Under the pieces are notes generated by a model. That model saw only the letters and a list, made by a program, of their open reading frames with translations, did no database searches and was not told the DNA's origin. The translations under genes and the position numbers were made by a program. Of a stretch of DNA of 64,000 nt, positions 1 to 53,804 are shown one piece after another (the stretch's first letter is position 1; every line of letters begins with the position of its first letter). The stretch is taken from positions 64,001 to 128,000 of IMG/VR virus record IMGVR_UViG_3300047548_000772; one strand, written 5' to 3'. The stretch is from a virus.

Positions 1-492
1 CATTTTGCACGTGAATGGAGAGACAACGGTAAACCTATACATCACTTAGTGGGCACTAACTCACGTATGAGCGAACTAGACTGTGCGCATATGATGGTTA
101 AGACTCGTTATATCGACCAATGGCAGTCGCGACGTAGAGCAATTGCAACATACTGGCTCGAACGACTAAGCAAACACCCTCAGATTAAAACACTAGTTGA
201 TTCAAAGAACTTGTCTACACACGCACTACACAAGTTTGTTATTCATGTAGACAATCGAGATCAACTTCGTAAGATGTTAGAAGTTCGTAAGATTGAAACT
301 AAAGTTCACTACGAACGCCCGCTACACGAAATGGGGATGTTTACACAATATCCAGGGCCTAACATGTTAAGCACAGCATCTTCATTGGCTCGTCGTGTGC
401 TGTCGTTACCTATATACCCTGAACTAACAGATCTTGAAGTAGAATATATTATCGATCAGGTAATAGATTGCGTTTCAGAAATGCATAACTAG
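1..492 (+). CDS. DegT/DnrJ/EryC1/StrS-family PLP aminotransferase, C-terminal part (5'-truncated by window edge)
   Basis: Frame is open from base 1 (HFAREWRDNGKPIHHLVGTNSRMSELDCA). Family motifs GTNSRMSE, HALHKFVI, GIETKVHY-like IETKVHYERPLH, and LSLPIYPELT. Confidence 0.85.
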   Translation, partial: HFAREWRDNGKPIHHLVGTNSRMSELDCAHMMVKTRYIDQWQSRRRAIATYWLERLSKHPQIKTLVDSKNLSTHALHKFVIHVDNRDQLRKMLEVRKIETKVHYERPLHEMGMFTQYPGPNMLSTASSLARRVLSLPIYPELTDLEVEYIIDQVIDCVSEMHN

Positions 493-2065
493 CAAGCCAG
501 TCCCACTCGTAACTTTTCTTTAGTTCATCAAAGTCGCCGTTGACTGTATCGTAGTATTCTACTGCATCAAGGGCGCCATAACGGCTCCAATCTTCGTTGA
601 CCACTGCTGACAAGGTGTTAGTTTCCTTGGTCCATTGCTTAATACGATACGCACTTTCCATATCGGGCAAGTTTGCTTTGAGTTTTAGTACTTCGCGGAA
701 AGCAGTACGCCAGGCAATCCAAGGTGTGTAGTTATAACGTGCAACACCAGACAAGATAGGTACAACTTCGTGAGCATCATCTAATGTAAAGTCTAGTCCC
801 TTACCAGGATTGTTTAATACTAGTTGTTTGTTATAGGCAATCATTGCTTGATGCCCATACTCTAATCCGTTAACAGGATTCTTAGCATGGAAGATATAAT
901 GCTTGGCTGCTTGTAGTCTATCGGGTTGCCAATCCCATGGAAAATCGATGTCAACTTCTAACTTGGCAAACACGGCAAAGAACCAATCAGTTTCGCTGGC
1001 AGCGGCAGCGGCTTTGTACGCGGCAGCACGACCATTAACTCCGTCGACTCGGTGTAATCGTAACGAACCATAGTAAGGTGCCACACGTGCTTGAAGCCAT
1101 TGCCAATGTTGTTCAGCACACGGTTCGCCGTTGCTGATAAACACAATGTCTAATAGACGTTCCGGCCAGTTAGCAATAGACTTGTCGATTACAGGATAAT
1201 CGTAGAGTTGTGTTTTTAAAAAGTTCTTTGCTTCCCGTGGAACAACAACGTTAGATGCACCCGGAGTAAGCGGCACAATCGCTTTGGTTTCTTGGCGCCA
1301 TAGATTAATCACAGGATCATAACCAATAGGATCATAACGTGCAAATTGTACTACAGGATCTCGAAAATCGTATTCCCATACTGCTGGTACTTGACTGTCG
1401 TGCTCGTGATGATACACAGGAATGGGTCGACGTTTTACTGAAATATCTTCTACAAAGTGAATAGTGTCAAACCACTCAAGCAACGCTAGGTTTTCTACTT
1501 TCTTTAAGAAACTCGGAACATGTACAAAAAACGTATCGCCAAACCTTTGATCTTGGCTTGGAAATACGTGTAACATATCTAACTGCCATTCACTAGGGTG
1601 CCATGTAAAGTCAAAATCTGTGTAATCACAAACGCTAGATACTACCCAAACATATTCTTCATTGACTTTGCTTAGTGCACGTTTTAGTGTGCCTAAGTAG
1701 TCGCTAATATAACGTGTAGAGTATTCGCAGTCAATGTTTAGTCCGTTGCCGTGATCAATACCAACTCGAGATATCTGACCCTTTCTAAGAACTATATCGT
1801 GATTACGATTAATATCGTTTACACCCGATTTAGGAATTAAGTAAGTGCCGCCGTTTTCTTGCCACTGACTAGGCCATACATGTGTTTGATCGGATTCCCA
1901 GGGCACAGGTTCCCAAAGCCAATCGAACCGAGAATAGTCATTCAGGCCATCAACGACCCATAAGTATCGAGTACGACTGAGTTCGCAGGCATGCTCTAAA
2001 CTATTAGCACGCTGTTCATGCGGAAATAGTCCAGTTGCATTATTTAGATAAAAAACGTCAAACAT
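449..2065 (-). CDS. Glycosyltransferase-like (GT-A) protein with three tandem related modules, 538 aa
   Basis: C-terminal module (DIVFISNGEP...RVDGVNGRAAAYKAAAAASETDWFFAV...AWRTAFRE) aligns by eye with 18155..19081. Two upstream modules repeat the WVV...DF.W.P..W...HV.PS pattern. Confidence 0.6.
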   Translation of the reverse strand: MFDVFYLNNATGLFPHEQRANSLEHACELSRTRYLWVVDGLNDYSRFDWLWEPVPWESDQTHVWPSQWQENGGTYLIPKSGVNDINRNHDIVLRKGQISRVGIDHGNGLNIDCEYSTRYISDYLGTLKRALSKVNEEYVWVVSSVCDYTDFDFTWHPSEWQLDMLHVFPSQDQRFGDTFFVHVPSFLKKVENLALLEWFDTIHFVEDISVKRRPIPVYHHEHDSQVPAVWEYDFRDPVVQFARYDPIGYDPVINLWRQETKAIVPLTPGASNVVVPREAKNFLKTQLYDYPVIDKSIANWPERLLDIVFISNGEPCAEQHWQWLQARVAPYYGSLRLHRVDGVNGRAAAYKAAAAASETDWFFAVFAKLEVDIDFPWDWQPDRLQAAKHYIFHAKNPVNGLEYGHQAMIAYNKQLVLNNPGKGLDFTLDDAHEVVPILSGVARYNYTPWIAWRTAFREVLKLKANLPDMESAYRIKQWTKETNTLSAVVNEDWSRYGALDAVEYYDTVNGDFDELKKSYEWDWLASYAFLKRNLLPDR

Positions 2066-3176
2066 GATTCGTATTGATGAAATATATAATAACGTATTTC
2101 TAGCAGCATTGCAAGATCAACGGAGAACCTCTATACATTGGTTTGATCCTTTTGGGTCAACTAGTTTTGACGATATCAAAAGCGAACCCAAAATTCAAAG
2201 TATTCCTTATACAGGCCCGAACAACACAACACTATATTGGGAAGTTGATCATCGAATACTATTCTGGGATCAAGAACCATTACACAGAGATCGTGCTGCA
2301 CAATGCCTTGATTCATTTTGTGCTGTTTACAACTCACACAATAAGTATCGAACATTAGTAACTTCAGAATATTGCAGCGAAGATGTTCAATGGGCACAAG
2401 ATACTTATGGGCTAAGACCTGCGTATTATTTCTTTCATGCCTGGGCATCATTAGATTGGTACCGCGGGTACAATCACAGTTATCTAATAGAACCATTTAA
2501 ATACCGTCAGCCTACATACACATTTTTGTGCCCGAATAATATTATCGGCGGTCGTCGCCGACATAGATTAGAATTGTTATCGGAATTAATTGATCGTGAA
2601 CTTGTGTACAACAACTTGGTTAGCTTTCCAGATCGTTGTCCTTATGAAAACAAATCGGTTACTGAACTATGTCAGGAATACGACATAGACATGGCCGCCG
2701 TCGACTTACCGTTAAAGATCGATCACGGTGCTAATTATCATTCAGGTAGCCATCAAATTGACATGTGGTCGTTGGCCAGTCAAAGTCTGTTGCACGTTGT
2801 CACTGAAACTGTGTATAATGGACGTAAGCAACATCTAACAGAAAAAACATTTAAACCTATTGTTATGCAACAGCCGTTTGTTTTAGTCAGTTGTCGAGGC
2901 AGTTTAGAATACTTACGCAGGTATGGATTTAAAACGTTCAATGATGTGTGGGACGAAAGCTATGACGACGCAAGCGACGAGTCGCGTATTTTAAAAATAG
3001 GTAAATTGTTGTCGGACATTCACAACTTGTCTTTAAAAGAAAAACAACAGTTACAAAAGCATCTAACACCAATTGTCGAACATAACTACAATTGGTTTTA
3101 CTCCAATGACTATCAAAGTTTATTGTGGGACGAATTAACAACTATGGTGAATCAATGGTTTTATCGTTTTGTGTAG
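2064..3176 (+). CDS. Putative GT-B glycosyltransferase (GT10-like 'TEK' motif family)
   Basis: HVVTETVYNGRKQHLTEKTFKPIVMQQPFVLV...GFKTF..WDESYD, reminiscent of the alpha-1,3-fucosyltransferase ITEK motif. Confidence 0.55.
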   Translation: MIRIDEIYNNVFLAALQDQRRTSIHWFDPFGSTSFDDIKSEPKIQSIPYTGPNNTTLYWEVDHRILFWDQEPLHRDRAAQCLDSFCAVYNSHNKYRTLVTSEYCSEDVQWAQDTYGLRPAYYFFHAWASLDWYRGYNHSYLIEPFKYRQPTYTFLCPNNIIGGRRRHRLELLSELIDRELVYNNLVSFPDRCPYENKSVTELCQEYDIDMAAVDLPLKIDHGANYHSGSHQIDMWSLASQSLLHVVTETVYNGRKQHLTEKTFKPIVMQQPFVLVSCRGSLEYLRRYGFKTFNDVWDESYDDASDESRILKIGKLLSDIHNLSLKEKQQLQKHLTPIVEHNYNWFYSNDYQSLLWDELTTMVNQWFYRFV

Positions 3177-4345
3177 ACAAACTTGTCGACGGCAAGCCTT
3201 ATCCAAATGCTGCTGTTTGGCAAGCACAACCTTATACACCCGAATGGCGTAAATTTAGTGTTAACTGGCCGTATTCAGAACCTGTGCACTTTTTTGAATA
3301 TTTAGATCGTTGTAGGATTCCTTATAAGATCGTACAGTGGACACAAGCCGACCGCAACACATTTTATCCTATAAGTTTAAGCTTCTTTGATTTTGGTATC
3401 GATTGGTTCGCAACCATACGCCCAGAGATCAAGGAAAAGCTACGTGCCGACGGCCTAACACTTTGGTTCTTTTACAGCGAGGGCGACAACCCCAAACGCA
3501 TATACGAACATTTGTTAAAGCAAGCAGAACAACACACAATCAAACCTGAACGCATACGTTTTACCAGTGCAAACTCAATGGCAGATTCACTGGAAAACTT
3601 TAGTTACTTTGTTGACGATGAATGTCTATACCAATTGCGCAACACAGACGCTCCGGTGGACTTTCATACACAACCGCGCGATAAGAAATTTACTATGTTG
3701 GTTCGTACACACAAGTGGTGGCGTGCTACAACCATGGCTAGATTTTGGTCGCAAGGCTTGCATAAACAAGGTTACTTTTCATATAACAACGCACTAGGCG
3801 TAGATGACCAAGAAAATGATAATCCAATTGAAATTGATAGCTTTGAAAATCTACGCAACAATACCTATGAATTCTTAAATCAATGCCCGTTTGTTGCAGA
3901 TAGCCTTAGTCCGGACCAGCACAACTTGTATGCTACCACGGTTGAAGAACACTTCGGTAACAGTTATCTTAACGTTATATTAGAAACACACTTGGACGTG
4001 GATCAAAGTAATGGCGTATTTTTAACAGAAAAAACTTTTAAACCAATCAAGCATTCGCAACCATTTATTATATTTGGCGCAGCAGGTAGCATTGCACAAC
4101 TTCGTGCAATGGGTTACCGAACATTCGACCACGTAATTAACCACAATTACGATAGTATTGCTGATAACACACAACGTTGGGATGCAGCATGCCGCGAATT
4201 TGAACACTTAATGACCTGCGACTTACATCAATTATATCTTGCTTGCGAAGGTGATCTTCGACACAACCAACAATTATTCTTAGCAAGCAAAGAAGCCCGC
4301 GTAAATAGTCTACTAGAGAGAATAACACATGCAACCATTAGTTAA
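3155..4345 (+). CDS. Putative GT-B glycosyltransferase (GT10-like 'TEK' motif family)
   Basis: NVILETH...FLTEKTFKPIKHSQPFIIFG. ATG at 3155 preferred over the GTG at 3125. Confidence 0.55.
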   Translation: MVLSFCVDKLVDGKPYPNAAVWQAQPYTPEWRKFSVNWPYSEPVHFFEYLDRCRIPYKIVQWTQADRNTFYPISLSFFDFGIDWFATIRPEIKEKLRADGLTLWFFYSEGDNPKRIYEHLLKQAEQHTIKPERIRFTSANSMADSLENFSYFVDDECLYQLRNTDAPVDFHTQPRDKKFTMLVRTHKWWRATTMARFWSQGLHKQGYFSYNNALGVDDQENDNPIEIDSFENLRNNTYEFLNQCPFVADSLSPDQHNLYATTVEEHFGNSYLNVILETHLDVDQSNGVFLTEKTFKPIKHSQPFIIFGAAGSIAQLRAMGYRTFDHVINHNYDSIADNTQRWDAACREFEHLMTCDLHQLYLACEGDLRHNQQLFLASKEARVNSLLERITHATIS

Positions 4346-5357
4346 TAGTTACACCAGCTGGCAACCACTTGAAGAAGTTATCGTAGGGCGAGCATACACG
4401 CCTGACTATTTTGATTTTATCGAAAATGCGCAAGTGCGTAACCAACTACAACAAATTCTAGCCGAAACTGATGAAGATTTAAACAATCTACAACGTATTA
4501 TTGAACAATACGGTGCTGTTGTTCGTCGTCCAGATTTACCAAACAAAGACTGGTTTATTGATTCGCAAATTAATTCAGACGGTGCACCGTTGCCTCCGCT
4601 TACTCCACGCGACTGGCAAATTAGTCTTGGACAAAAACTCCTGCGTGTGTTACCAATGACAGAGTTAAATGATATATGTAAACTCTACGGAGATCAAGTT
4701 ATTAACCCACACGGTGAAACATGGGATCCTAACTGTATCCTAAACGGTGCATCAGCAAGTTGTATCGTGCGTGTAGGACGTGACGTATTCTTTGATAACT
4801 CGGATCATTTAAAGCCAGAACAAACTCAATGGATAATCGAAAACTGCTTAGGACCGGAATATCGTGTGCATGAAGCAATCACCGATGGTCACGGCGATGC
4901 TGTATTTGCTATTCTAAAGCCAGGAGTTATTTTGAGCAGCAAGCACGATGTTAACTTAGATCTAGCCGGGGACTTTCCAGGGTGGGATGTATGTAAGATT
5001 TGGGATTCTAGCATTTGGGCTGCTATGGAAGTTGGTAAGTTCAAAGAAGAAAACTTCAACGGTTCCTGGTATGTACAGGGACAAACACCCACAGCAGAAT
5101 TTACAAACTTTGTAGATACTTACTTAAAGAACTGGGTAGGATTTGTATCAGAAACTGTGTTTGATGTTAATTGTTTAGTACTCGATGAAGAAAATGTAAT
5201 CTTCAGTGCTTACAACAAACAAGTATTTGATTTTTGCGCCAAGCACAAGATCAATCCTATTATTGCAGAACTGCGTCACAGTTACTTTTGGGATGGCGGC
5301 GTTAGTTGCTGTACCCAAGACATCCGACGCCGCGGCGGACTAGAGTCTTATCTCTAA
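4329..5357 (+). CDS. Amidinotransferase (glycine / inosamine-phosphate amidinotransferase family), copy 1
   Basis: VNSYTSWQPLEEVIVGRA N-terminus, PRD, GHGD, DVN, and C-terminal GGVSCCTQDIRR with the catalytic Cys position. Confidence 0.85.
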   Translation: MQPLVNSYTSWQPLEEVIVGRAYTPDYFDFIENAQVRNQLQQILAETDEDLNNLQRIIEQYGAVVRRPDLPNKDWFIDSQINSDGAPLPPLTPRDWQISLGQKLLRVLPMTELNDICKLYGDQVINPHGETWDPNCILNGASASCIVRVGRDVFFDNSDHLKPEQTQWIIENCLGPEYRVHEAITDGHGDAVFAILKPGVILSSKHDVNLDLAGDFPGWDVCKIWDSSIWAAMEVGKFKEENFNGSWYVQGQTPTAEFTNFVDTYLKNWVGFVSETVFDVNCLVLDEENVIFSAYNKQVFDFCAKHKINPIIAELRHSYFWDGGVSCCTQDIRRRGGLESYL

Positions 5358-6160
5358 CTGTTACTACGTTGTAGTAACTTTTCCCAGGTATCGTCAGGAC
5401 CCAACACTGGCAATGGCCAAGCATTTGGGGAATTTGGCGGGAAAGCAACAATACTAAAAATAGCGTCATTGCCAAATTGATTATCTGGGTTATTGTTAAA
5501 GTTTTGTGGGTTGTAATTGCGCACCACACACCAGCCCATTTGATAACCTAGTGCGTCGAGCATATTATACAGCTCAGGAATATTTTCGCTTTCTTGTGCT
5601 TCAAAGTAAATTACAGGCAAATACTTTTTAATAGTTTCTGCTGCACCTTGAAATACGCCCGGTTCGTGTCCTTCAACGTCAATTTTTATTAACCCTGGTG
5701 GCAAAATTTTACCCGCGGTGACCAACGAATCTATAGAATCCATTGCTACTTCAACACCCGTCTTGGTACCAACACGGGCCATACCATAGTTGCCAATTTG
5801 TGTTACATCAATTTCTTCTACTAAGATTTTTCCTGCAGCATTGCTTACTGCTAGATTAAACAATGTACAACGCGGCTCTTCTTGTAGGTTCATACGCAAC
5901 ATTTTATAGTGCTGCGGATTTGCTTCAAAACAATAAACATGCTTGCTACGACTTGCAAATGCACTAGCGTGATAACCTATGTTACTGCCAATGTCATAGA
6001 CCACAGTATCTTCACCAACTAACTGTAGTAGCATGTCTAATTCAACTTGTTGATATTCACCATACAAGCGCAAACTTGCACTGATAATATCGTCCCAACG
6101 ATAAACAATGAATCTATCTCGGTACCTTGTTCGTATTACATCTGTATAATCTAACTGCAT
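5354..6160 (-). CDS. FkbM-family SAM-dependent methyltransferase
   Basis: VYDIGSNIGYH, VYCFEANP, LIKIDVEGHE motifs. Confidence 0.9.
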   Translation of the reverse strand: MQLDYTDVIRTRYRDRFIVYRWDDIISASLRLYGEYQQVELDMLLQLVGEDTVVYDIGSNIGYHASAFASRSKHVYCFEANPQHYKMLRMNLQEEPRCTLFNLAVSNAAGKILVEEIDVTQIGNYGMARVGTKTGVEVAMDSIDSLVTAGKILPPGLIKIDVEGHEPGVFQGAAETIKKYLPVIYFEAQESENIPELYNMLDALGYQMGWCVVRNYNPQNFNNNPDNQFGNDAIFSIVAFPPNSPNAWPLPVLGPDDTWEKLLQRSNS

Positions 6161-7635
6161 ACTCGCACACCATATTTTTCTTCAAAGCGATCGGCATCGG
6201 CACGATCATCAACCATTGGTTCACCGCGGATATTTAGCGATGTGTTTAGTAACATCGGGCAACCTGTTTCTGCATACCACGCTTCTAAGAGTTGTCGGAT
6301 GCCTGATCCACAATCCTTTGGCACAGTTTGTACACGACTACTCCCGTCAACATGAACAATAGCAGGATATACGTCAGGATTCCTACAACGAGCGACTGTT
6401 TGCATATACCTGCTGTGATGCCAGCCATAAGGCATACTGAAGTAATCACTAACATACTCTTCCAGAATAACTGGCGCAAAGGGTCTAAACTTTTGTCTAC
6501 GTTTGATCTCATTTACTTGATCCTTGATTTCTGTACCACGAGGGTCTGCTAACAAACTACGATTGCCCAAAGCACGTGGACCGAATTCGGCGCGGCCGCT
6601 GGCAACACCTACAATCTTATTGATCTTTAATTCTTTAACTAGTTCGCCTACGGGATAAGGGCCTGTGATATCTGTGCCCAAGTAAGGATGTTCCCAATTT
6701 AACTTGCCACCGTGAGCTAAAGCTGCTGCGCCAAGACTTGACCCACAATCGCCTGGGTTAGGCATAATCCAGAAATTACTAAAGAACTTGCCCATGTGCG
6801 AGTTAGCCACACAATTAAGAGCAACGCCTCCCATATACACTACATTCATGCTACGAGTCATGTGCGATGCTCTAAGCATTACGCTATCGACCATTTGCTC
6901 AACAATCTTTTGTGCAGCATAAGCAAGTTCAACATCGCTAAACTGATCTAACCAATTATCAGGTACGCCAATATGGAAGTTCTCTTTAAATCGGCACTCG
7001 GTTATGCTGTCTACTACTAAGTCGTACATTGCACGATAAGCCTTATTGTCACCCCAAGCAGCCATGCCCATAGTAATGTATTCTTCGTCCATTGGACGCA
7101 ATCCTACACGCTTGGTTACTGCAGAGAAGAACATACCTATGCTGTGCGGGTACTTTTGACGCCATAGTAAATGATACTGTGCCCGACCCTTAGGATCATA
7201 ATAAGCATCGTAAATGCTGATTGTGTCGGATTCACCGATAGCATCAATAACAACTACCGCTGCTTCCGCAAATGGCGACGTTTGAAATCCTGCGGCTGCA
7301 TGGCTCTTGTGGTGGTCGCTTGATGAAATTTGTCGCGGGTTAAGAAAATAGTTGCCCAGTTGATCACGTAGGGCTCGCTTAGTCGTCCAGACGTCACTAA
7401 ATCCTTCACCAGATCTAAGCGATCGTAATTGTCTTCGCCACGGTGTTTCATAGTATGCTAAATGTCCTGTATAATAAGGTTCTACTGCATCTAAAATGCC
7501 TGCACACAAATTCGGATCGTTTTTCTTTTTACTAAAACGTTCCGAGTGCCCTGCAAATAGTATGTCGCCCTGCTGGTTAACAACGCTGATACCAGCGTCA
7601 TGAAATCCAGCCGAAATTCCGATTATGTTGCTCAT
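6151..7635 (-). CDS. Carbamoyltransferase, NodU/CmcH/TobZ family
   Basis: FHDAG, HHKSHAA, VIDAIGE, GGVALNCVAN, EFGPRALGNRSLLADP, KRRQKFRPFAP, HVDGSSRVQTV, LNTSLNIRGEP. Confidence 0.95.
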   Translation of the reverse strand: MSNIIGISAGFHDAGISVVNQQGDILFAGHSERFSKKKNDPNLCAGILDAVEPYYTGHLAYYETPWRRQLRSLRSGEGFSDVWTTKRALRDQLGNYFLNPRQISSSDHHKSHAAAGFQTSPFAEAAVVVIDAIGESDTISIYDAYYDPKGRAQYHLLWRQKYPHSIGMFFSAVTKRVGLRPMDEEYITMGMAAWGDNKAYRAMYDLVVDSITECRFKENFHIGVPDNWLDQFSDVELAYAAQKIVEQMVDSVMLRASHMTRSMNVVYMGGVALNCVANSHMGKFFSNFWIMPNPGDCGSSLGAAALAHGGKLNWEHPYLGTDITGPYPVGELVKELKINKIVGVASGRAEFGPRALGNRSLLADPRGTEIKDQVNEIKRRQKFRPFAPVILEEYVSDYFSMPYGWHHSRYMQTVARCRNPDVYPAIVHVDGSSRVQTVPKDCGSGIRQLLEAWYAETGCPMLLNTSLNIRGEPMVDDRADADRFEEKYGVRVCS

Positions 7636-7733
7636 TTGTAGATAAATGGATCGCGCTTGCGAAGTTCCTTTAGTTTACGACGATAGTTAATTTCTAACTT
7701 AATTTTGTAATATAAATTACGAATCCAACCCAT
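7632..7733 (-). CDS. 33-aa basic peptide MGWIRNLYYKIKLEINYRRKLKELRKRDPFIYK (absent from ORF track)
   Basis: Hand-translated. AAGGAG Shine-Dalgarno upstream, fills the gap between 7735 and 7635 exactly, and its TGA overlaps the carbamoyltransferase ATG (ATGA). Confidence 0.8.
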   Translation of the reverse strand: MGWIRNLYYKIKLEINYRRKLKELRKRDPFIYK

Positions 7734-7734
7734 T

Positions 7735-14883: not shown

Positions 14884-16285
14884 CCCACCAGGCTTTCATT
14901 TCTGGGAATGTTGCTAAAAAGTCTGTGCCGCGGCGGCGATCATGTTCAGCGAAGAAACGATAAAAATCTGCTTTGTTGCGCTGTACATACGCAGGATCTA
15001 ACTTGGCACCATCGCGCATCCAAGCAATGTCACGATCTAGCCTAGCAATTTCATAGTCCTTAAACCCTTTAAAGCGAGTTTGTTCGGTTTCTGCATTTTT
15101 AAGCATATACACCCAAACTTCTTCTAAATGATCTGCATAGGATTCTGGCAGTAATTGCATACTTTGCCAAGCGGGTGTGCGTAGTACAGGCGTGTCAAAC
15201 CACACACGTTGATAATGATTAGAATAAATCTGACGCAAGCCTAGTATAGCTGTCATTAGATATTCAAGTGTGCTTACGCTTAAATTATTCATTGTAATAA
15301 TAAACGTAATCGAACTGCGTCCGGGAATTTCTGTTAAAAATTGATTAACACGATCCCATAATAGCGCAAAGTCTAATCCATTACGAATATATTCCGCACG
15401 TTCAAACATAGCATCTAAACTAACATATTGCATAAAGTGTTCAACGTGTGGGTCATTGTCGTCGCACAAGCGTTTAACATAGGACTTGTACTTTTGCCAC
15501 AGGCTTTCTTCTACTGAAAAATTACTGGTTACATTTAAATGTAACTTGGGATTGTGATTGGCCAGCACATAATCAAACACACGATATGTATTTTTATCCA
15601 TTAATGGCTCACCACCAGTCATGCGGAAATGTTCTAACTGTGGATAAAGCTCGGGCCACCACTGCCAAAATGCTTCTACATAAGGATTATGTTCTCTATT
15701 AGGTATTGGGCGGCGCTGCCCAGTAAAATAACCGGGATCATTATGAGGAGTGGAAGTAGGAAACGCTCCTTCACGCTGAGCCTCATCCATCCACGAACTC
15801 GAGAACTGAGGGCTACAGTAACTACAACGTAGGTTGCAAGCATAGTTAAAATTAACTTCAACATAACTGGGGATAGCATCTTCGTCTCCTGTGCTGTGTG
15901 CTATTTGATCAAAACTAGGTGCAGCCCAAGGTTCGCCCGAACGATAATGACGGTCCGATAATTTGCCATTATCTTCCATAGCCCAACAGTAACTACATTC
16001 TGCAGGCCGGGTTCCTTGTAACATTAACTTACGTTGCGACTTTTTATATTCAGTATTGTGTAATGCGCTGGGTTTACGCTGTATTTCTTCTACGGGTATA
16101 ACATGCAGTGGAGGATGATAGCACGAGTTATTCATGCCCGTGGTTAAATGTAAACTAACTTGCTTCCATTTGGCCAAGCACAAACTCGGACTAACTGCGT
16201 CTAGTTTTTCCTTGATTATTTCTGCATCACTTAAAAACTTTGATTTAAAGTCCTGTGTAACTTCATCGCCCTTGTTATTATTCAT
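14852..16285 (-). CDS. Radical SAM enzyme with N-terminal twitch-like domain (CYH variant)
   Basis: CLAKW...NSCYHP, CSYCWAME, NYACNLRCSYCSP, MTGGEPL. Start taken at MNNNKG (16285). Confidence 0.9.
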   Translation of the reverse strand: MNNNKGDEVTQDFKSKFLSDAEIIKEKLDAVSPSLCLAKWKQVSLHLTTGMNNSCYHPPLHVIPVEEIQRKPSALHNTEYKKSQRKLMLQGTRPAECSYCWAMEDNGKLSDRHYRSGEPWAAPSFDQIAHSTGDEDAIPSYVEVNFNYACNLRCSYCSPQFSSSWMDEAQREGAFPTSTPHNDPGYFTGQRRPIPNREHNPYVEAFWQWWPELYPQLEHFRMTGGEPLMDKNTYRVFDYVLANHNPKLHLNVTSNFSVEESLWQKYKSYVKRLCDDNDPHVEHFMQYVSLDAMFERAEYIRNGLDFALLWDRVNQFLTEIPGRSSITFIITMNNLSVSTLEYLMTAILGLRQIYSNHYQRVWFDTPVLRTPAWQSMQLLPESYADHLEEVWVYMLKNAETEQTRFKGFKDYEIARLDRDIAWMRDGAKLDPAYVQRNKADFYRFFAEHDRRRGTDFLATFPEMKAWWDECKYYANNS

Positions 16286-16736
16286 GTGAGTTTGTTCCGA
16301 GACGGTTAAGGTCAAATTGACTTTGATTCTTTAACATATAGCGCATTGGATTGTTTTCTGTTAAACACATTTCAATCGTACCGTTAAATCCCCAATAATT
16401 TTCGTGTGTGATTTCACTGTGATTATCACGGCGGCAACTAAAGACCTGATCTATTAGATCAATGTGTAAAGGAAAATTGTTTATTTTGATTCCTGTAATT
16501 TCAATCGCTTTGTCTTTGGTAATTGTGCCAGTGGCGTCAATTTCCATGTCGTTTTTATTTTTATTACTGACTGTAATTTTTAGTGTAGTCGGCCAATTTA
16601 CATCAAATGTAACAGTTGATGGTCCTTCGGGAAAATTATTGTTGCTGTAAATTTCTTGGTCGTCGCTACAGATTAACAAATGCATTGATCCGTTGCAATT
16701 TGTAGAATTAACATCAAAAGTAATTGTGGTTTTCAT
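16278..16736 (-). CDS. Hypothetical protein, 152 aa
   Basis: In-operon ORF, ATGA-coupled to the upstream B12 radical SAM gene; no motif recognised. Confidence 0.65.
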   Translation of the reverse strand: MKTTITFDVNSTNCNGSMHLLICSDDQEIYSNNNFPEGPSTVTFDVNWPTTLKITVSNKNKNDMEIDATGTITKDKAIEITGIKINNFPLHIDLIDQVFSCRRDNHSEITHENYWGFNGTIEMCLTENNPMRYMLKNQSQFDLNRLGTNSHE

Positions 16737-18145
16737 GATGACAATTCTTTATGTGCTATACCTAGTGTGTCGTTGTTGCCCGACGTCGTCGGAATATTTA
16801 GATCCTTTAAAAGGTCCTTGAGTTCTTGTGCATATTTTATACGATCTTGAGTTGTTACGCAAGTAGTTGGTGTTATCCAAATAGTGGGTATTGATCCCAC
16901 TGAAATACCATATTCCTTTTGCTTTTTATCAAGTTGCGTATTTGGTAATATTGCTGCCAAAGAAAAAACTACTTGCGATACAGTATTGCGGGCGTATTGT
17001 TTTCGGTCCTTGAACCATTGTTTAGTGAATTCAAAGTCTTCTTTAGTCTCGGTTGGGTATCCAACAATTAACAATAACAGCAGTGGCACCGAATACTTTT
17101 GCGCCATTGCTAAATGATAATCAATTGCAGCATTGGTAAAGTTTTTACCTAGTGCTACGCGAACTTTTTCAATTACGCTTTCTATGCCAAGTTGTAAAAA
17201 CCCATTGGACTTTTTAAGTTTTTTCCAAAATTCTTCTGGGTGCTGCTGTTGGTTTCTAACAATAAAATATCCATCCCACGATATTTGCTGGTCAGGGTGT
17301 TGATCGTTGTACTCACAGATAAAATCCAATAATAGTCGAAACTCTTTCATGTTACCATTGGTCAAACTATTGTAAAAAAAGAATTTACGGATATTGTAGC
17401 GTTTAATTTGTTCGACCATTTCTGCAATAATGTTATCTGCAGTACGATATTGATATTTTTTCCAATGCTCAATTACATCGCAGAATTCACATGTGCGCAC
17501 ACACCCGCGGCTATCACATATTGGAATTCCTTGTTCTTTGTAATTGTCAAAATTGTAATCGTCAAAATCCGGATAAGGCAGTTGGTTAAGATCGCGTATA
17601 GGTTGCCACGCTGCTGAGTTAATTCCAATGTAGTTTAAGTTGTCTTTAAGGTACTCAATAATACTGTATTCACCGTCGCCGTTGATGTAATCGCTGATAT
17701 ACCCGTGACTCTTTAACATTTCGGCATAACTCATTGATGAATCTGCAATAAAGTTTTTAATACCGCTGCCGCCGATTACTATCTTAAGTGTAGGATTAGT
17801 ATATGATAAGTGATAGCATAGCCACAATCCAAAATATTGTGTGTCTTGAGTTAGAAAACTTAACCCTAGCACATGTGGGTTTACTTGTGTAATTCTATCT
17901 ACACAATAGTCTAACAAATCACCTATTTCTTGTTCAATGCCCGGGGAAAACTCTTGCTCCTTAAGGAACTTTTCAAGATCTTCGCGACGCGGACTTTGCT
18001 CGATTTTATTCATTACTTCGATGTTCAGATCAATGGCTTGAGCGTCGAAGCCGCTGGCTTTTGCGCAGGCTTTTAATAGCGCAGGAGCCAAAATAGGTCT
18101 TTGCGTTATAGTTCCTGGAACAGAAGCAAATAAAATATCAATCAT
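16733..18145 (-). CDS. B12-binding radical SAM enzyme (class B methylase-like)
   Basis: N-terminal cobalamin-binding-type region (LGLSF, IVIGGSG, NGDGE), YPDFDDY, SRGCVRTCEFC, LGIES, LLIVGYPTET. Confidence 0.85.
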   Translation of the reverse strand: MIDILFASVPGTITQRPILAPALLKACAKASGFDAQAIDLNIEVMNKIEQSPRREDLEKFLKEQEFSPGIEQEIGDLLDYCVDRITQVNPHVLGLSFLTQDTQYFGLWLCYHLSYTNPTLKIVIGGSGIKNFIADSSMSYAEMLKSHGYISDYINGDGEYSIIEYLKDNLNYIGINSAAWQPIRDLNQLPYPDFDDYNFDNYKEQGIPICDSRGCVRTCEFCDVIEHWKKYQYRTADNIIAEMVEQIKRYNIRKFFFYNSLTNGNMKEFRLLLDFICEYNDQHPDQQISWDGYFIVRNQQQHPEEFWKKLKKSNGFLQLGIESVIEKVRVALGKNFTNAAIDYHLAMAQKYSVPLLLLLIVGYPTETKEDFEFTKQWFKDRKQYARNTVSQVVFSLAAILPNTQLDKKQKEYGISVGSIPTIWITPTTCVTTQDRIKYAQELKDLLKDLNIPTTSGNNDTLGIAHKELSS

Positions 18146-18154
18146 TTATTAAAC

Positions 18155-19081
18155 TTACCAACCTTCGATACTTCTAATAACGTCTATTTCGCGTGTCATA
18201 ACACCACGATTGTGCCAGTTGCTCCGATAATGATGCTTAAAGAAAGCACTTTGTTCTGCTAGTAGCATAGACATAGGCAAGTCAAGTTGAATATGTAACT
18301 CGTCGGCTACTGTGTTTGCTACTAATTCTGGTTGCGAGTCTTTGACAGTTAACCATAGTTCTTGTAACTTATCAAAGTTTTGTACCTCGGTATAATCCCA
18401 GTTTGTAAGCATAGTCATGTATGTGCCTTGGCGTGCGCCAGCAATTGCCCACATACCAAAATCCACATCTGCGCCTACGTTGTGCCAAATTGTTAAATGA
18501 TCTAGATTGCGCTTATGTACTAAGTCTTTGAACTCTGTTTGATTAGGTTTACGACCTCGATCTAAGCACATCTTGACGCCTTCGCGGAATCCTGCACGCC
18601 AAGCCTGGAACGCTGATCCATTAGGATATGTAGTTGAATAACAATCATGCATGGGCCAGTATAACGGATCGAAACAAAACTCCACTACAGTTTCGCTGCG
18701 TCCATCGGTATTTTCATGTGTGCGCATGTTATTGACAAACTCACGTGTCCAAGAACTTATACCACCGTTGCCGTACATTAGACCATTGATGTGATTACGA
18801 GCACGCCAACGTAGTGTTGCCTTTTCCCAGGATTCATCTGGAAACTCTAAGGTCAAGTTAAAGAAACTTTCGTCGGGTATGTTATCACCATCAATTAAGA
18901 TAAAACGTTCTGTGTCGGACGCTGCGGCTGCTGCTTTGTGTGCTGCATCGGATCCTTTGACACCATCTACACGTTTGGCCCAAGGTACCATATTACGAAT
19001 ACGCACCCAAAATTCTTCCTTTTGTGGTTCATCGTAGCTTAGGTAAATGCAATCTAAATCTGCTATATCAACTTGCTTCAT
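18155..19081 (-). CDS. Putative GT-A glycosyltransferase
   Basis: CIYLSYDEP, RVDGVKGSDAAHKAAA, FILIDGDN (DxD motif), AWRAGFREG. Confidence 0.65.
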   Translation of the reverse strand: MKQVDIADLDCIYLSYDEPQKEEFWVRIRNMVPWAKRVDGVKGSDAAHKAAAAASDTERFILIDGDNIPDESFFNLTLEFPDESWEKATLRWRARNHINGLMYGNGGISSWTREFVNNMRTHENTDGRSETVVEFCFDPLYWPMHDCYSTTYPNGSAFQAWRAGFREGVKMCLDRGRKPNQTEFKDLVHKRNLDHLTIWHNVGADVDFGMWAIAGARQGTYMTMLTNWDYTEVQNFDKLQELWLTVKDSQPELVANTVADELHIQLDLPMSMLLAEQSAFFKHHYRSNWHNRGVMTREIDVIRSIEGW

Positions 19082-19415
19082 AAGTTATCTCTGCTTTCCA
19101 GTAAGTTTTGTTAGGATAGTCTTTGCTGACAATAATAGTAATATCATCGGCGTAGCATGCATAGTCACCCGACTCAGCGGGCTTTAATTTCCAACTTTGC
19201 GGTACGCTTGTGTATATAATGCGACCATCGCGCACCACAGCGTCATATCGCATTTCAGCAAATGTTTGCCGATCAACAACAATAAAGTTGCCAGGAAGGT
19301 CGTCCATTGTGTAACATATAATTGTACCATCGTCATTGTAGTACAATCTATATTCTAGTCGTTGTTCCGGTTGCGACCAATCAAACTCTGCTAGTGCTTG
19401 TAAGAAGGGATCCAT
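19068..19415 (-). CDS. Hypothetical protein, ~115 aa
   Basis: In-operon ORF; start MDPFLQ at 19415 preferred. Confidence 0.65.
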   Translation of the reverse strand: MDPFLQALAEFDWSQPEQRLEYRLYYNDDGTIICYTMDDLPGNFIVVDRQTFAEMRYDAVVRDGRIIYTSVPQSWKLKPAESGDYACYADDITIIVSKDYPNKTYWKAEITYEAS

Positions 19416-20217
19416 AATGTTTTTCCAATATATGTGCAAGAGCTTTTTCTTGATAATGCCATGCACCTTGTTGTTCTACTGTGTTAATGCGCACACGACC
19501 CTGATCCAATTCCCATACGTATTCTGATGTCCAAGGACGTATGTCTGACTTTAAATAATTGACCTGTGGTTTCATATGTATGATACTAGGCCAAGCATCG
19601 GGTAGTGTTACACGTTCTACGCCCATGTATTTGGCAACCATGGCATAAATCATGTCCGTGTTAGCAGGCACGTTGTCACAGAACTTTAGTGTTTTACGAA
19701 CTTCGGTCCATTGCTCAAAGAAGGTCTGCACTAGGTTGAAGAACTCCGCTGCTGTGCGACTAAGTCGCCAATATGTAATTGCATTGTACACATCGGGCAG
19801 ATCATTATCATCAAACATGCGTCGATATGCTCGACACTCACTAACATCATTTAAGTAGTTACGCATACCCCGGCTAATAACTACGTCGCGGTGCTCAAAC
19901 CATGACCACCAATGAGCAATGGATTCTGTAATTACCATGTCGGCTTCTAGTTTAATAGTTTCGCGGAACGGGCTGGCAGCAAACACTTGCCAGTCGTTGT
20001 GCCATCCGCCGACATCGCCGTATGGTAATGGCTTAACTAAATCAAATACTGGGTCAGTTTCTGTGTCGTTGGTTACTAGACAAATTTTGCAATCAGGCAT
20101 CCAATAACGTAGGCTTTTAGCCAGTGCTCTGGCACAAGCAAGATAGTCATCTTGGCCGTTGTTGCTGGCTAGGATTAAGTATCCACGTTCAAATTCTACT
20201 GCCACAGATTTTTCCAA
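19381..20217 (-). CDS. Putative GT-A glycosyltransferase (GT8-like)
   Basis: RGYLILA...YLACARALAKSLR...KICLVT, SPFRETIKLEADM (ExD in the DxD position). Paralogous to the next gene. Confidence 0.65.
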   Translation of the reverse strand: MEKSVAVEFERGYLILASNNGQDDYLACARALAKSLRYWMPDCKICLVTNDTETDPVFDLVKPLPYGDVGGWHNDWQVFAASPFRETIKLEADMVITESIAHWWSWFEHRDVVISRGMRNYLNDVSECRAYRRMFDDNDLPDVYNAITYWRLSRTAAEFFNLVQTFFEQWTEVRKTLKFCDNVPANTDMIYAMVAKYMGVERVTLPDAWPSIIHMKPQVNYLKSDIRPWTSEYVWELDQGRVRINTVEQQGAWHYQEKALAHILEKHYGSLLTSTSRV

Positions 20218-21010
20218 AGTCAGGTTTATTCATTACATGTAAGTCTGTATTAGACAATATCATGCGTTGATGACGTTCTTTAAACTCTACCATGCGTACA
20301 TAGTTAAGTTGAAACTGATCATCGTCTAGTTGATTTAGATATACATCATAAAAACTTGTTAACAAAGGCCAAGGAATACTAGGCACAGCGTTAGGTAAAT
20401 GTCCGTATAATGTGCTTAGTGCAATACTAATGGCGTAGTCATTGCGGTAAGGTTCTTCTTTGAATTTGTACAATCTGCTATAATGATAATAGTTGTTCTC
20501 TATCATATTCATCATAGCAAATGTATCTTCTGCTAGTCGGCTGCGCTTGAAATAAAGCACCGTTGCCCACCACATGGGAAATTCCACAAAGCCAAATCGT
20601 GTATCGATGGCAAAGTTTTCTCGATCTGTTACGTCTAGTACATAACGATGGCACAGTAAATCTTGTCCAACGTCAAACAATACTTTTAAACGATCGCTAG
20701 CAACAATGTAATCTGTATCTAAAACAAGCGTTTCATCGTATGGACTAAATGCATAAGCATTATGGCGCCCACAGTTGTACCAATGTGCGCTAGAATCGGC
20801 ATTCATATGATCGTATTTGCGTGTTCCGCCAGACTTTGATTCAGTGACAACAACGTTATCAAACATAGAGGTATCCTCGGGAGGATCATTTGTTACTAAC
20901 GTTGTTGGCAACCCTAAATGACGTTCAATGCGAGGTGCTGACCACTGTGCTTGACTAACATAGTCAACCTTGTCATTGTTAAATGCAAAAAGTACTGCGC
21001 CCTTGGTCAT
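20189..21010 (-). CDS. Putative GT-A glycosyltransferase (GT8-like)
   Basis: KGAVLFAFN, SPYDETLVLDTDY (DxD), WWATVLYF, RNDYAISIA. Start MTKG at 21010, ATGA-coupled. Confidence 0.7.
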   Translation of the reverse strand: MTKGAVLFAFNNDKVDYVSQAQWSAPRIERHLGLPTTLVTNDPPEDTSMFDNVVVTESKSGGTRKYDHMNADSSAHWYNCGRHNAYAFSPYDETLVLDTDYIVASDRLKVLFDVGQDLLCHRYVLDVTDRENFAIDTRFGFVEFPMWWATVLYFKRSRLAEDTFAMMNMIENNYYHYSRLYKFKEEPYRNDYAISIALSTLYGHLPNAVPSIPWPLLTSFYDVYLNQLDDDQFQLNYVRMVEFKERHQRMILSNTDLHVMNKPDFGKICGSRI

Positions 21011-21327
21011 CGTTGACGTGCTAATTCTTCGTGTTCGACTAACCAGGCATTCATTTGCTCTTGCCATATTTGCGATGCTTTGTCAAACAACTCTCGAGGC
21101 ACTACTTTTACAGGTGTGTCGTACAAATCTAAAAGCACAATGGCGGGTAGCCATTCGTCGCAAAGGTGTAAGGTAGCCATTAATTCTGGGCCTGCTCGCC
21201 ACATTCCACCAGCATGGGCAAATACCATTTTGCTGGCATACTTTTCTTTGAGTAGTTTCTTTTGCGTAGCGTGGTCAAAACGGCTACGTATTTCTTTAAC
21301 TAGAGTATCTGGATTAGACATATTCAT
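21007..21327 (-). CDS. Hypothetical protein, 106 aa; first gene of the tailoring operon
   Basis: ORF directly downstream of a sigma70-like promoter; TGA overlaps the next ATG. Confidence 0.7.
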   Translation of the reverse strand: MNMSNPDTLVKEIRSRFDHATQKKLLKEKYASKMVFAHAGGMWRAGPELMATLHLCDEWLPAIVLLDLYDTPVKVVPRELFDKASQIWQEQMNAWLVEHEELARQR

Positions 21328-21333
21328 TCCGTA

Positions 21334-21362
21334 ATTTTACTACAATATGTAGCAAAAGTAAA
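21334..21362 (-). promoter_or_regulatory. Sigma70-type promoter TTTACT-N17-TAAAAT, 6 nt upstream of the ATG (leaderless-type)
   Basis: Minus strand reads tttact tttgctacatattgtag taaaat tacgga ATG. Confidence 0.55.
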
Positions 21363-21382
21363 GGGCCCGAAGGCCCTTTTTT
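21360..21382 (-). terminator. Intrinsic terminator with cUUCGg tetraloop ending the structural operon
   Basis: Minus strand aaagggcc-TTCG-ggcccttt followed by acttttg. cUUCGg hairpins are typical of T4-like terminators. A T-run on the plus side suggests it may be bidirectional. Confidence 0.85.
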
Positions 21383-38612: not shown

Positions 38613-38613
38613 A

Positions 38614-50862: not shown

Positions 50863-50868
50863 TATAAT
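50840..50868 (+). promoter_or_regulatory. Sigma70-type promoter TTGTAA-N17-TATAAT, 6 nt before the gp47 ATG (leaderless-type)
   Basis: TATAAT at 50863-50868, ATG at 50875, no Shine-Dalgarno in between. Confidence 0.55.
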
Positions 50869-50874
50869 ACCTAG

Positions 50875-53803: not shown

Positions 53804-53804
53804 C

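What the first reader, a model, noticed from the sequence alone, without database searches (positions are those of the whole stretch)
1..21327. Phage-encoded aminosugar/glycan-tailoring supercluster with an aminoglycoside-like enzyme set
Seen: about 21 kb next to the tail module encoding a DegT aminotransferase, amidinotransferase, FkbM methyltransferase, NodU/TobZ carbamoyltransferase, five twitch radical SAM enzymes, one B12 radical SAM enzyme and about seven GT-like proteins, mostly translationally coupled. Known: these families decorate aminocyclitols and aminosugars (StsC/BtrR transamination, StrB1 amidination, TobZ carbamoylation, BtrN/NeoN twitch radical SAM oxidation or epimerisation, GenD1/GenK B12 methylation). 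Inference: the phage builds a guanidino-, carbamoyl- and methyl-decorated glycan and attaches it to virion proteins, the host surface or DNA. I know no characterised phage pathway of this size.
Basis: partly seen in the sequence, partly recalled or inferred. Interest (0 to 1): 0.9.

Follow-up and report, generated by a model that had tools for sequence, protein, structure and literature searches.

The report
Jumbo-phage radical-SAM sugar-tailoring island
An uncultured giant phage of about 350 kb carries, beside its tail genes, a conserved block of about 23 kb of soluble sugar-building, sugar-transferring and radical SAM enzymes plus a tiny conserved peptide; it most likely builds a heavily edited sugar decoration, but the product and its target are untested.

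Summary
Window 1-21327 encodes a DegT aminotransferase, an amidinotransferase (4329-5357; catalytic His and Cys aligned with AGAT), an FkbM methyltransferase, a TobZ/NovN-type carbamoyltransferase, five radical SAM paralogs and one B12-type radical SAM enzyme.

Seven GT-like proteins fall into three families. One family (three genes) is confirmed as GT-B by fold. The other two (four genes) are GT-A leads only.

- **Radical SAM genes:** they belong to NCBIfam NF033640, with the twitch domain at the N-terminus, not to the BtrN/NeoN type. No member has a known reaction.
- **Extent:** the island runs past the window start, where an SDR sugar-nucleotide enzyme sits.
- **Conservation:** the core keeps strict gene order in 80 related viral contigs of about 345-353 kb. 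The B12 enzyme (1/80) and FkbM (11/80) are accessory.
a conserved 33-residue peptide ending in DPFIYK, coupled to the carbamoyltransferase, and a conserved terminator separating the island from the tail genes.

All proteins are soluble. No cyclitol synthase or hydroxymethylase was found in five complete relatives.

The best reading is cytoplasmic assembly of an edited glycan on a phage protein or peptide. The aminoglycoside analogy is superficial. This scan found the same island before in at least 61 other genomes.

The parts
1..492 (+). 3' part of the DegT/DnrJ/EryC1 aminotransferase (full gene contig 63356-64492). An SDR NDP-sugar epimerase/dehydratase precedes it at window -1608..-580, and an SGNH-like ORF at -2527..-1529.
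   Evidence: Pfam 3.6e-62. The PLP lysine aligns with DesV (2oga, 5.9e-41). Nearest solved relatives are mostly C-3 aminotransferases: DesV, QdtB, WbpE. SDR: Pfam Epimerase 2.9e-44, YxxxK present.
449..2065 (-). o538, famB paralog of o308 (GT-A/GT2-like lead)
   Evidence: phmmer 1.4e-12 to o308. No Pfam hit.
2064..3176 (+). o370, famA GT-B-type glycosyltransferase paralog
   Evidence: phmmer about 1e-11 to 1e-13 to o335 and o406. Fold evidence comes through o335.
3125..4345 (+). o406, famA GT-B-type glycosyltransferase paralog
   Evidence: Present in 40 or more of 80 relatives.
4329..5357 (+). Amidinotransferase (AGAT/StrB1 superfamily)
   Evidence: Profile A5 against PDB: AGAT 1.6e-18, StrB1 2.5e-14, HsvA, SxtG. 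GHGD His and GGISCC Cys align with the AGAT catalytic His and Cys. About 80% identical across relatives.
5354..6160 (-). FkbM-family methyltransferase (accessory)
   Evidence: TIGR01444 at 98 bits. Found in only 11 of 80 relatives.
6151..7635 (-). TobZ/NovN/NodU-type carbamoyltransferase (core)
   Evidence: Pfam Carbam_trans_C 9.7e-50 and Carbam_trans_N 3.1e-30. PDB: NovN 4.2e-46, GdmN, TobZ.
7632..7733 (-). 33-aa basic micropeptide ending in DPFIYK. Its stop overlaps the carbamoyltransferase start (ATGA).
   Evidence: Found in 71 of 80 relatives. 13 of 15 invariant residues use synonymous codons. 186 clusters at 50% identity; in most of the 150 listed hits the motif ends at the protein's C-terminus, and no fusion to a larger enzyme is evident.
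7735..8820 (-). o361, conserved phage-only protein of unknown function
   Evidence: AF2 pLDDT 80.7. No PDB match by Foldseek. Cyclophilin-like barrel at Z about 8, borderline. Only uncharacterised phage proteins match in BFVD, best 2.7e-17.
8795..10087 (-). rS1, N-terminal-twitch radical SAM
   Evidence: NF033640 at 287 bits.
10074..11288 (-). rS2, N-terminal-twitch radical SAM
   Evidence: NF033640 at 336 bits.
11285..12547 (-). rS3, N-terminal-twitch radical SAM
   Evidence: NF033640 at 374 bits.
12528..13883 (-). rS4, N-terminal-twitch radical SAM
   Evidence: NF033640 at 296 bits. A 51.5% identical ortholog sits in Ralstonia phage RsoM2USA.
13876..14883 (-). o335, famA GT-B glycosyltransferase (the modelled member)
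   Evidence: AF2 pLDDT 75. All Foldseek and VIA matches are GT-B transferases: H. pylori alpha-1,3-FucT Z 11.8, T4 BGT Z 11.4.
14852..16315 (-). rS5, N-terminal-twitch radical SAM
   Evidence: NF033640 at 306 bits.
16278..16736 (-). o152, unknown (accessory, inserted together with the B12 enzyme)
   Evidence: Found in 1 of 80 relatives. The segment has low GC, 0.37.
16733..18145 (-). B12-type (class B-like) radical SAM enzyme (accessory)
   Evidence: Radical_SAM 1.4e-13. The best NCBIfam hits are all B12-binding radical SAM families but score below their cut-offs. Found in 1 of 80 relatives.
18155..19081 (-). o308, famB (GT-A/GT2-like lead; conserved DGD motif)
   Evidence: ESM Atlas nearest named cluster is 'Glycosyltransferase 2-like', 0.99. 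No Pfam or PDB sequence hit.
19068..19466 (-). o132, conserved unknown
   Evidence: Found in 67-72 of 80 relatives.
19381..20217 (-). o278, famC (GT-A lead)
   Evidence: hhalign to the o292 family: probability 100%, 2.2e-77.
20189..21067 (-). o292, famC (GT-A lead; true start probably 21010)
   Evidence: Top PDB hits are glycogenin with the DxD motif aligned, but E is about 1. ESM Atlas nearest named clusters are nucleotide-diphospho-sugar transferase, GT8 and Mannosyl_trans3 at 0.95-0.97.
21007..21327 (-). o106, conserved unknown; first gene of the minus-strand unit
   Evidence: Found in 55 of 80 relatives.
21334..21379 (-). Terminator-like GC hairpin with a T run, overlapping a promoter-like site, between the fibre-like gene o309 and o106
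   Evidence: The hairpin is kept with compensatory stem changes in relatives, 36 of 51 by a strict pattern.

Best explanation
The island is a self-contained cytoplasmic pathway for building and editing sugars, carried by a clade of jumbo phages of about 350 kb.

Inferred steps:
1. No nucleotidyltransferase was found in the 192-kb record (about 55% of the genome), so host NDP-sugars are probably the input.
2. The SDR enzyme makes a keto-sugar.
3. DegT transaminates it. Its closest solved relatives are mostly C-3 aminotransferases.
4. The amidinotransferase can turn an amine into a guanidino group.
5. The TobZ/NovN-type enzyme adds a carbamoyl group.
6. FkbM and the B12 radical SAM enzyme, where present, add methyl groups.
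7. Up to seven soluble glycosyltransferase-like proteins assemble the chain directly on a soluble acceptor.
8. The five divergent N-terminal-twitch radical SAM paralogs perform radical edits on the sugars or the acceptor. Candidates are epimerisation, oxidation, deoxygenation or C-C/C-methyl chemistry.

The acceptor is most likely a phage-made protein, such as a tail fibre or other virion protein, or the conserved 33-residue peptide.

Shown: gene identities, folds, paralogy, conservation and solubility. Inferred: all substrates, the order of steps and the target.
For: - Enzyme families.
- GT-B fold of famA.
- Strict synteny of the core in 80 related contigs.
- DegT lies beside the island in 5 of 5 complete relatives.
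- The variable slots of relatives are filled with GDP-mannose dehydratase/epimerase, UDP-glucose dehydrogenase, an HldE-like kinase/cytidylyltransferase, hexapeptide acyltransferases, DegT, methyltransferases and extra radical SAM genes.
- One bacterial array of NF033640 genes (G152) sits next to a methyltransferase-GT2 fusion, a GT-C enzyme and a GDSL protein.
- No protein has a hydrophobic segment above KD 1.5.
- The island lies directly beside tail-fibre and baseplate genes. A second set with a GT-B paralog and an amidinotransferase paralog lies on the other side of the tail module.
Against: - No product, substrate or target has been observed.
- Four of the seven GT-like proteins rest on leads only. 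There is no Pfam GT2 or GT8 match in the record, and hhalign to E. coli WaaJ/WaaO gives probability 1%.
- NF033640 has no known reaction.
- A second bacterial array (G080) sits with five PhyH dioxygenases, a WelO5-like enzyme and a methyltransferase. That context looks more like small-molecule or protein tailoring than glycan synthesis.
- A conserved terminator separates the island from the tail genes, so co-expression with them is not shown.
- The conserved micropeptide fits a peptide-centred pathway equally well.
Confidence: 0.55

Rival explanations
1. Peptide-centred (RiPP-like or scaffold-peptide) pathway. The 33-residue peptide with the invariant free C-terminus DPFIYK is the substrate or scaffold. 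The twitch radical SAM enzymes, the carbamoyltransferase and the amidinotransferase modify it, and sugars are secondary additions.
For: - The peptide is translationally coupled between o361 and the carbamoyltransferase, and it is under purifying selection.
- The family has 186 clusters. In most of the 150 listed hits the motif ends at the protein's C-terminus.
- SPASM/twitch radical SAM enzymes are typical peptide maturases (PMC11002830). SkfB is among the nearest solved structures.
- From knowledge of the family: HypF, a relative of the carbamoyltransferases, carbamoylates a protein C-terminus.
Against: - No RiPP recognition element, protease or exporter was identified.
- The peptide is very basic and helix-like, so it could equally be a small enzyme subunit.
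- Sugar-nucleotide enzymes dominate both the island and its variable slots.
Confidence: 0.2
2. Remodelling of the host surface glycan (LPS O-chain or capsule) during infection to block superinfection. This was proposed for the host recognition cluster of pelagimyophages.
For: PMC7029224 describes tail-fibre-linked islands with glycosyltransferases, rfaE, UDP-glucose dehydrogenase and radical SAM cassettes, and it favours this reading. Similar accessory genes occur here.
Against: - All island proteins are soluble.
- None of the island ORFs matched a membrane glycosyl- or phosphoglycosyl-transferase, flippase, polymerase or ligase family in Pfam or NCBIfam.
- The gene set is far larger than known seroconversion cassettes.
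Confidence: 0.1
3. Hypermodification of phage DNA with a decorated sugar.
For: The famA fold matches T4 beta-glucosyltransferase (Z 11.4) and alpha-glucosyltransferase (Z about 10) about as well as it matches fucosyltransferases. ThyX lies about 3 kb upstream.
Against: - No thymidylate-synthase-family hydroxymethylase in the record or in five 95-100% complete relatives.
- The island sits in the structural region.
- Similarity to BGT is at fold level only, 7-10% identity.
Confidence: 0.07
4. A free aminoglycoside-like or other small-molecule natural product made during infection.
For:
- The second-best solved DegT relative is deposited as glutamine--scyllo-inositol transaminase (7b0d, 2.3e-37).
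- Slots in relatives hold a Trp halogenase and AMP-binding enzymes.
- The bacterial context G080 looks like natural-product tailoring.
Against: - No DHQ-synthase/DOIS family gene in the record or in five complete relatives.
- No exporter or resistance gene was identified.
- The radical SAM genes are not of the BtrN/NeoN type.
Confidence: 0.05

Closest known systems
NCBIfam NF033640, N_Twi_rSAM (twitch domain-containing radical SAM protein)
   Same: All five paralogs score 287-374 bits against a cut-off of 170. They have CxxxCxxC and four invariant N-terminal cysteines.
   Different: The family is a catalogue entry with no known reaction. Here it occurs as a fixed array of five paralogs only 19-26% identical to one another, inside a phage island.
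Host recognition cluster of pelagimyophages and cyanomyophages (PMC7029224); radical SAM genes in structural clusters of Aeromonas phage 332-Vera (PMC12390700) and a T4-like marine genome (PMC5332604)
   Same: A variable island beside tail-fibre genes, holding glycosyltransferases, sugar-nucleotide enzymes and radical SAM cassettes. All are described only at annotation level.
   Different: This is a different phage clade of about 350 kb, related to Ralstonia phage RsoM2USA. It has a fixed syntenic core with a carbamoyltransferase, an amidinotransferase and the micropeptide, none of which those papers report.
Virus-encoded glycosylation of virion proteins (mycobacteriophage capsid and tail-tube glycosylation; chlorovirus and mimivirus glycan machinery).
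   Same: Soluble virus-encoded transferases and sugar-nucleotide enzymes next to structural genes.
   Different: Those systems have one to about a dozen genes and no radical SAM array, amidinotransferase or carbamoyltransferase. No virion glycan has been shown here.
Aminoglycoside biosynthetic clusters (BtrN/NeoN twitch radical SAM, StrB1, TobZ, GenK)
   Same: They share enzyme superfamilies: DegT, amidinotransferase (StrB1 2.5e-14), carbamoyltransferase (TobZ about 1e-28) and a B12-type radical SAM enzyme.
   Different: No cyclitol synthase was found. The twitch domain is N-terminal rather than C-terminal. The B12 enzyme is accessory. Seven transferases point to an oligosaccharide rather than a pseudo-trisaccharide.

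Membership tests
NF033640 N_Twi_rSAM | Score over the curated cut-off (170 bits) across the full model | tested here: met
   287, 336, 374, 296 and 306 bits, covering model positions 1-398.
NF033640 N_Twi_rSAM | CxxxCxxC radical SAM motif, with an N-terminal cysteine cluster (twitch) ahead of the core | tested here: met
   Invariant C132, C136 and C139, plus C8, C26, C79 and C82. Pfam SPASM matches residues about 8-97, ahead of Radical_SAM.
BtrN/NeoN-type twitch radical SAM sugar enzymes | Radical SAM core followed by a C-terminal twitch domain, with sequence kinship to BtrN | tested here: not met
   The domain order is reversed. The only BtrN similarity is E 0.0078, between the N-terminal 24-92 here and BtrN 188-258.
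Amidinotransferase (AGAT/StrB1, guanidino-group-modifying superfamily) | Full-length homology and the catalytic His and Cys | tested here: met
   AGAT 1.6e-18 and StrB1 2.5e-14. His of GHGD and the first Cys of GGISCC align with the AGAT catalytic residues and are invariant in 14 orthologs. The catalytic Asp was not checked.
TobZ/NodU/CmcH carbamoyltransferases | Kae1-like N domain plus YrdC-like C domain | tested here: met
   Both Pfam domains score over their cut-offs. NovN 4.2e-46. It is not a NodU equivalog: 137 bits against a cut-off of 1000.
DegT/DnrJ/EryC1 sugar aminotransferases | Fold-type I domain with the PLP-binding lysine | tested here: met
   211 bits. The lysine of SFDPMKN aligns with DesV SFYPGKN.
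GT-B glycosyltransferases (famA: o335, o370, o406) | Two Rossmann-like domains of the GT-B fold | tested here: met
   Z 11.8 over 248 residues at rmsd 3.9 to alpha-1,3-FucT. All 50 listed matches are GT-B transferases. There is no Pfam family match. Donor-binding residues were not examined.
GT8 / GT-A glycosyltransferases (famC: o278, o292) | Match to the Pfam Glyco_transf_8 model, or to known GT8 members | tested here: not met
   No PF01501 match in the record at E<=1. hhalign to WaaJ/WaaO gives probability 1%. Only leads remain: glycogenin at E about 1 with DxD aligned, and ESM Atlas GT-A clusters at 0.95-0.97.
GT2 / GT-A glycosyltransferases (famB: o308, o538) | Match to Pfam Glycos_transf_2, or a GT-A fold | tested here: inconclusive
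   No PF00535 match. One ESM Atlas lead names a GT2-like cluster at 0.99.
Class B (B12-binding) radical SAM methyltransferases | N-terminal cobalamin-binding domain plus radical SAM core, over a family cut-off | tested here: inconclusive
   All 17 NCBIfam hits are below their cut-offs and most are B12-binding radical SAM families. The best is TIGR03975 at 71 bits against 282, covering residues 64-378.
Aminoglycoside (2-deoxystreptamine-type) pathway | A DHQ-synthase-family cyclitol synthase | tested here: not met
   No PF01761 match in the record or in five 95-100% complete relatives. The myo-inositol route was not tested.
RiPP pathway | A conserved precursor peptide next to its maturases | tested here: inconclusive
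   A conserved 33-aa peptide is present. No leader/core architecture, recognition element or protease was identified.

The most novel reading that the evidence does not exclude
The invariant free C-terminus (DPFIYK) of the 33-residue peptide is the acceptor or scaffold. On it, five radical SAM enzymes of an uncharacterised family, a carbamoyltransferase, an amidinotransferase and soluble glycosyltransferases build a new kind of glycopeptide or peptide-scaffolded metabolite. The NF033640 enzymes would catalyse radical reactions not yet described.
Probability: 0.2. Interest if true: 0.9.

Novelty: new variant of a known kind. Interest (0 to 1): 0.66.

Why it matters
Virus-encoded glycosylation is known from giant eukaryotic viruses and a few phages, but not with this chemistry.

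- **A family without a reaction:** a fixed array of five radical SAM paralogs from a catalogued family with no known reaction sits with guanidinylating and carbamoylating enzymes and a near-invariant micropeptide.
- **How common it is:** 226 viral stretches matched, and more than 7,000 metagenome proteins were found for one paralog alone. A substantial enzymatic capability of large aquatic phages is therefore unexplained.
- **How testable it is:** a cultured distant relative, Ralstonia phage RsoM2USA, carries an rS4 ortholog, the carbamoyltransferase and the peptide.
- **What solving it would give:** a first reaction for NF033640, and possibly a new way for phages to alter particle or host recognition.

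Tried and rejected
**Searches that found nothing**
- Pfam, NCBIfam and PHROGs on the 11 unnamed ORFs gave nothing usable.
- Ortholog profiles of famA, famB and o361 against PDB sequences gave no significant hit.
- The famC profile against PDB gave only glycogenin at E about 1.
- hhalign of famC and famB against E. coli WaaJ/WaaO gave probabilities of 1% and 0.3%.
- Pfam GT8, GT2 and NTP_transferase searches of the 192-kb record found nothing.
- Foldseek of o361 against PDB found nothing. The cyclophilin-like match at Z about 8 lies in the range the tool calls non-specific.

- The search for related loci with the five-paralog alignment failed because no stretch was conserved enough.
- The one genome-contig hit is a 'Haliscomenobacter' MAG. 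The two of its contigs that carry the array (C1, C3) carry it in the same order as the phage, so it gives no bacterial context.
- Complex prediction (carbamoyltransferase plus peptide) was unreachable in five tries. It was never run.

**Statistics and literature**
- Counts of sigma-70 promoter and terminator patterns across the island are no higher than in shuffled sequence. Only the conserved hairpin at 21379-21360 is taken seriously.
- Literature searches for an N-terminal-twitch radical SAM function found nothing.

Full report
**Setting.** The window is bases 64001-128000 of a 192,074-bp IMG/VR virus record that CheckV rates 55% complete. Relatives with the same island are 342-353 kb, and two have direct terminal repeats. 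This is therefore a fragment of a jumbo phage of about 350 kb. Baseplate proteins (gp25, gp6-like and a gp5/V-type OB domain) lie at 38.6-44.8 kb, and a 4596-aa ORF lies at 24.8-38.6 kb. The cultured Ralstonia phage RsoM2USA (343.8 kb) shares the gp6-like protein at 35% identity.

**Observation.** The ORF map and the family scans confirm most named enzymes.
- DegT: the full gene starts 644 nt before the window (3.6e-62).
- FkbM: TIGR01444, 98 bits.
- Carbamoyltransferase: both Pfam domains are present. The nearest solved structures are NovN, GdmN and TobZ.
- Five paralogs of NF033640: 287-374 bits against a cut-off of 170.
- One radical SAM enzyme whose best matches are all B12-binding families, each below its cut-off.
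- Amidinotransferase: invisible to Pfam, but real. A profile of 14 orthologs of the ORF at 4329-5357 hits AGAT (1.6e-18), StrB1 (2.5e-14), HsvA and SxtG, with the catalytic His and Cys aligned and invariant.

**The 'about seven GT-like proteins'.** They resolve into three paralog families.
- famA (o335, o370, o406) is GT-B by predicted fold: pLDDT 75, Z 11.8 to H. pylori alpha-1,3-fucosyltransferase and 11.4 to T4 BGT. Every listed match is a GT-B transferase.
- famB (o308, o538) rests on leads only: an ESM Atlas cluster name.
- famC (o278, o292) also rests on leads only: glycogenin at E about 1 with the DxD motif aligned, and GT-A clan clusters at 0.95-0.97. Pfam GT2 and GT8 models and an hhalign test against WaaJ/WaaO found nothing.

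- The island continues upstream. An SDR NDP-sugar epimerase/dehydratase (2.9e-44, YxxxK) overlaps the DegT start, and an ORF with a GDSW motif precedes it.
- A 33-codon gene at 7632-7733 (-) sits between o361 and the carbamoyltransferase. It has a GGAG site upstream, and its stop overlaps the next start.
- That peptide occurs in 71 of 80 relatives. Its C-terminal 20 residues are almost invariant, and 13 of 15 invariant residues use synonymous codons.
- A whole-library profile search finds 186 clusters of the peptide at 50% identity, nearly all 27-100 aa. In most listed hits the motif is at the extreme C-terminus, ending in DPFIYK, and no fusion to a larger enzyme is evident. RsoM2USA has it too.
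- A GC hairpin with a T run at 21379-21360, between the fibre-like gene and o106, is kept in relatives with compensatory stem changes. The island is therefore at least partly a transcription unit of its own.

**Conservation.** tblastn of all island ORFs against 80 related loci shows this fixed order:

o106 - o292 - o278 - o132 - o308 - [slot] - rS5 - o335 - rS4 - rS3 - rS2 - [slot] - rS1 - o361 - peptide - carbamoyltransferase - [slot] - amidinotransferase/o406/o370

- The B12 enzyme and o152 occur in 1 of 80 loci, and FkbM in 11 of 80. These are cargo of the slots.
- DegT lies next to the island in 5 of 5 complete relatives.
- A Pfam tally of 67 non-redundant slot genes gave extra radical SAM genes, GDP-mannose dehydratase/epimerase, UDP-glucose dehydrogenase, a PfkB-plus-cytidylyltransferase pair, hexapeptide acyltransferases, DegT and methyltransferases. 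It also gave two AMP-binding enzymes and a Trp halogenase.

**What the radical SAM genes are.**
- The five paralogs are 19-26% identical to one another. They share CxxxCxxC and four N-terminal cysteines.
- Against solved structures they reach only viperin, SkfB and MoaA in the core. BtrN's C-terminal twitch region aligns with their N-terminus at E 0.0078. They are therefore not BtrN/NeoN-type enzymes.
- Among 301 Bacteroidota genomes, three exceed the family cut-off, and one of those is a MAG whose contigs carrying the array (C1, C3) show it in the same order as the phage.
- In one real chromosome (G080) two copies sit with five PhyH dioxygenases, a WelO5-like enzyme, a methyltransferase, a GDSL protein and a T9SS-secreted protein that has a tail-fibre chaperone domain.
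- In another genome (G152) four copies sit with a GDSL protein, a methyltransferase-GT2 fusion and a GT-C enzyme.
- The bacterial contexts are therefore mixed.

**Target.**
- No island protein has a hydrophobic stretch above KD 1.5.
- None of the island ORFs matched a membrane or lipid-carrier enzyme family, so assembly on a soluble acceptor is inferred.
- No thymidylate-synthase-type hydroxymethylase and no DHQ-synthase-type cyclitol synthase were found in the record or in five complete relatives.
- A second set with a famA paralog and an amidinotransferase paralog lies on the other side of the tail module. A third amidinotransferase paralog lies at 60027-61259.
- Position therefore favours a virion protein, and the coupled micropeptide is the other candidate.

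**Literature.**
- Descriptive reports exist: the 'host recognition cluster' of pelagimyophages, with glycosyltransferases, rfaE, UDP-glucose dehydrogenase and radical SAM cassettes (PMC7029224).
- Eight radical SAM genes sit in the structural cluster of Aeromonas phage 332-Vera, which its authors call highly unusual (PMC12390700).
- A T4-like marine genome has 12 radical SAM genes (PMC5332604).
- None of these papers reports biochemistry.
- Earlier notes of this scan describe the same island in at least 61 other genomes. Their leads on the peptide and on the separate promoter were tested here and hold.

**Verdict.** This is a new variant of virus-encoded glycan machinery with unexplained radical chemistry. 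The product and the target remain open.

Noticed in passing
window 49972-59261 (+) and 60027-61259 (-): A second tailoring set lies on the far side of the tail module. It holds a famA GT-B paralog (51888-52973), an ORF with a weak radical SAM hit (52877-53803) and an amidinotransferase paralog (53805-54980, 2e-49 to o342). A third amidinotransferase paralog lies at 60027-61259 (1e-55).
   Followed up: partly
contig 8704-9678, 39523-40848, 140179-141291, 175029-176096, 183887-184909; contig 37102-39213: At least five further famA paralogs and a 703-aa paralog of the B12-type radical SAM enzyme are scattered through the 192-kb record.
   Followed up: no
L084 (Ralstonia phage RsoM2USA, MG752970.1 about 123.4-128.3 kb): A cultured 344-kb phage has an rS4 ortholog (51.5% identity), the carbamoyltransferase (42%) and a DPFIYK peptide. 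All three are annotated as hypothetical or left unannotated. Its gp6-like baseplate protein is 35% identical to the one here.
   Followed up: partly
L085/G001 (NZ_JBBAKG010000003.1, 'Haliscomenobacter sp.' MAG): Two contigs of this MAG (C1, C3) each carry the same five-gene radical SAM array. L085, on C3, also shows o361, the peptide, the carbamoyltransferase and the amidinotransferase at 60-80% identity. This is either phage contigs binned with a bacterium or a hint at the host.
   Followed up: partly
L096 (G080:C2:1208000-1227999): A Bacteroidota chromosome holds two NF033640 genes beside five PhyH dioxygenases, a WelO5-like halogenase/hydroxylase, a methyltransferase, a GDSL protein and an 842-aa T9SS-secreted protein with a Peptidase_S74 tail-fibre chaperone domain.
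   Followed up: partly
slots of related loci, e.g. L050:17022-18509 and L068:17094-18386: Relatives carry a Trp halogenase (4.5e-91) and AMP-binding enzymes (7e-59) inside the island. These are unusual for a glycan pathway. The tally does not say which listed ORF holds which family.
   Followed up: no
window 24822-38612 (-): A single 4596-aa ORF lies between the island side and the baseplate genes. It is presumably a giant fibre or tail protein and is a candidate acceptor.
   Followed up: no
window 20189-21067 (-): The ESM Atlas and the protein database hold this protein from residue 20 (273 aa). The real start is therefore probably 21010, which gives a 4-nt overlap with o106.
   Followed up: partly
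L002:14292-14978, 8377-11101 (contig 54.4-61 kb): Upstream of the island lie ThyX, a MoxR-type AAA ATPase and a DUF2201 metallopeptidase/VWA pair.
   Followed up: no
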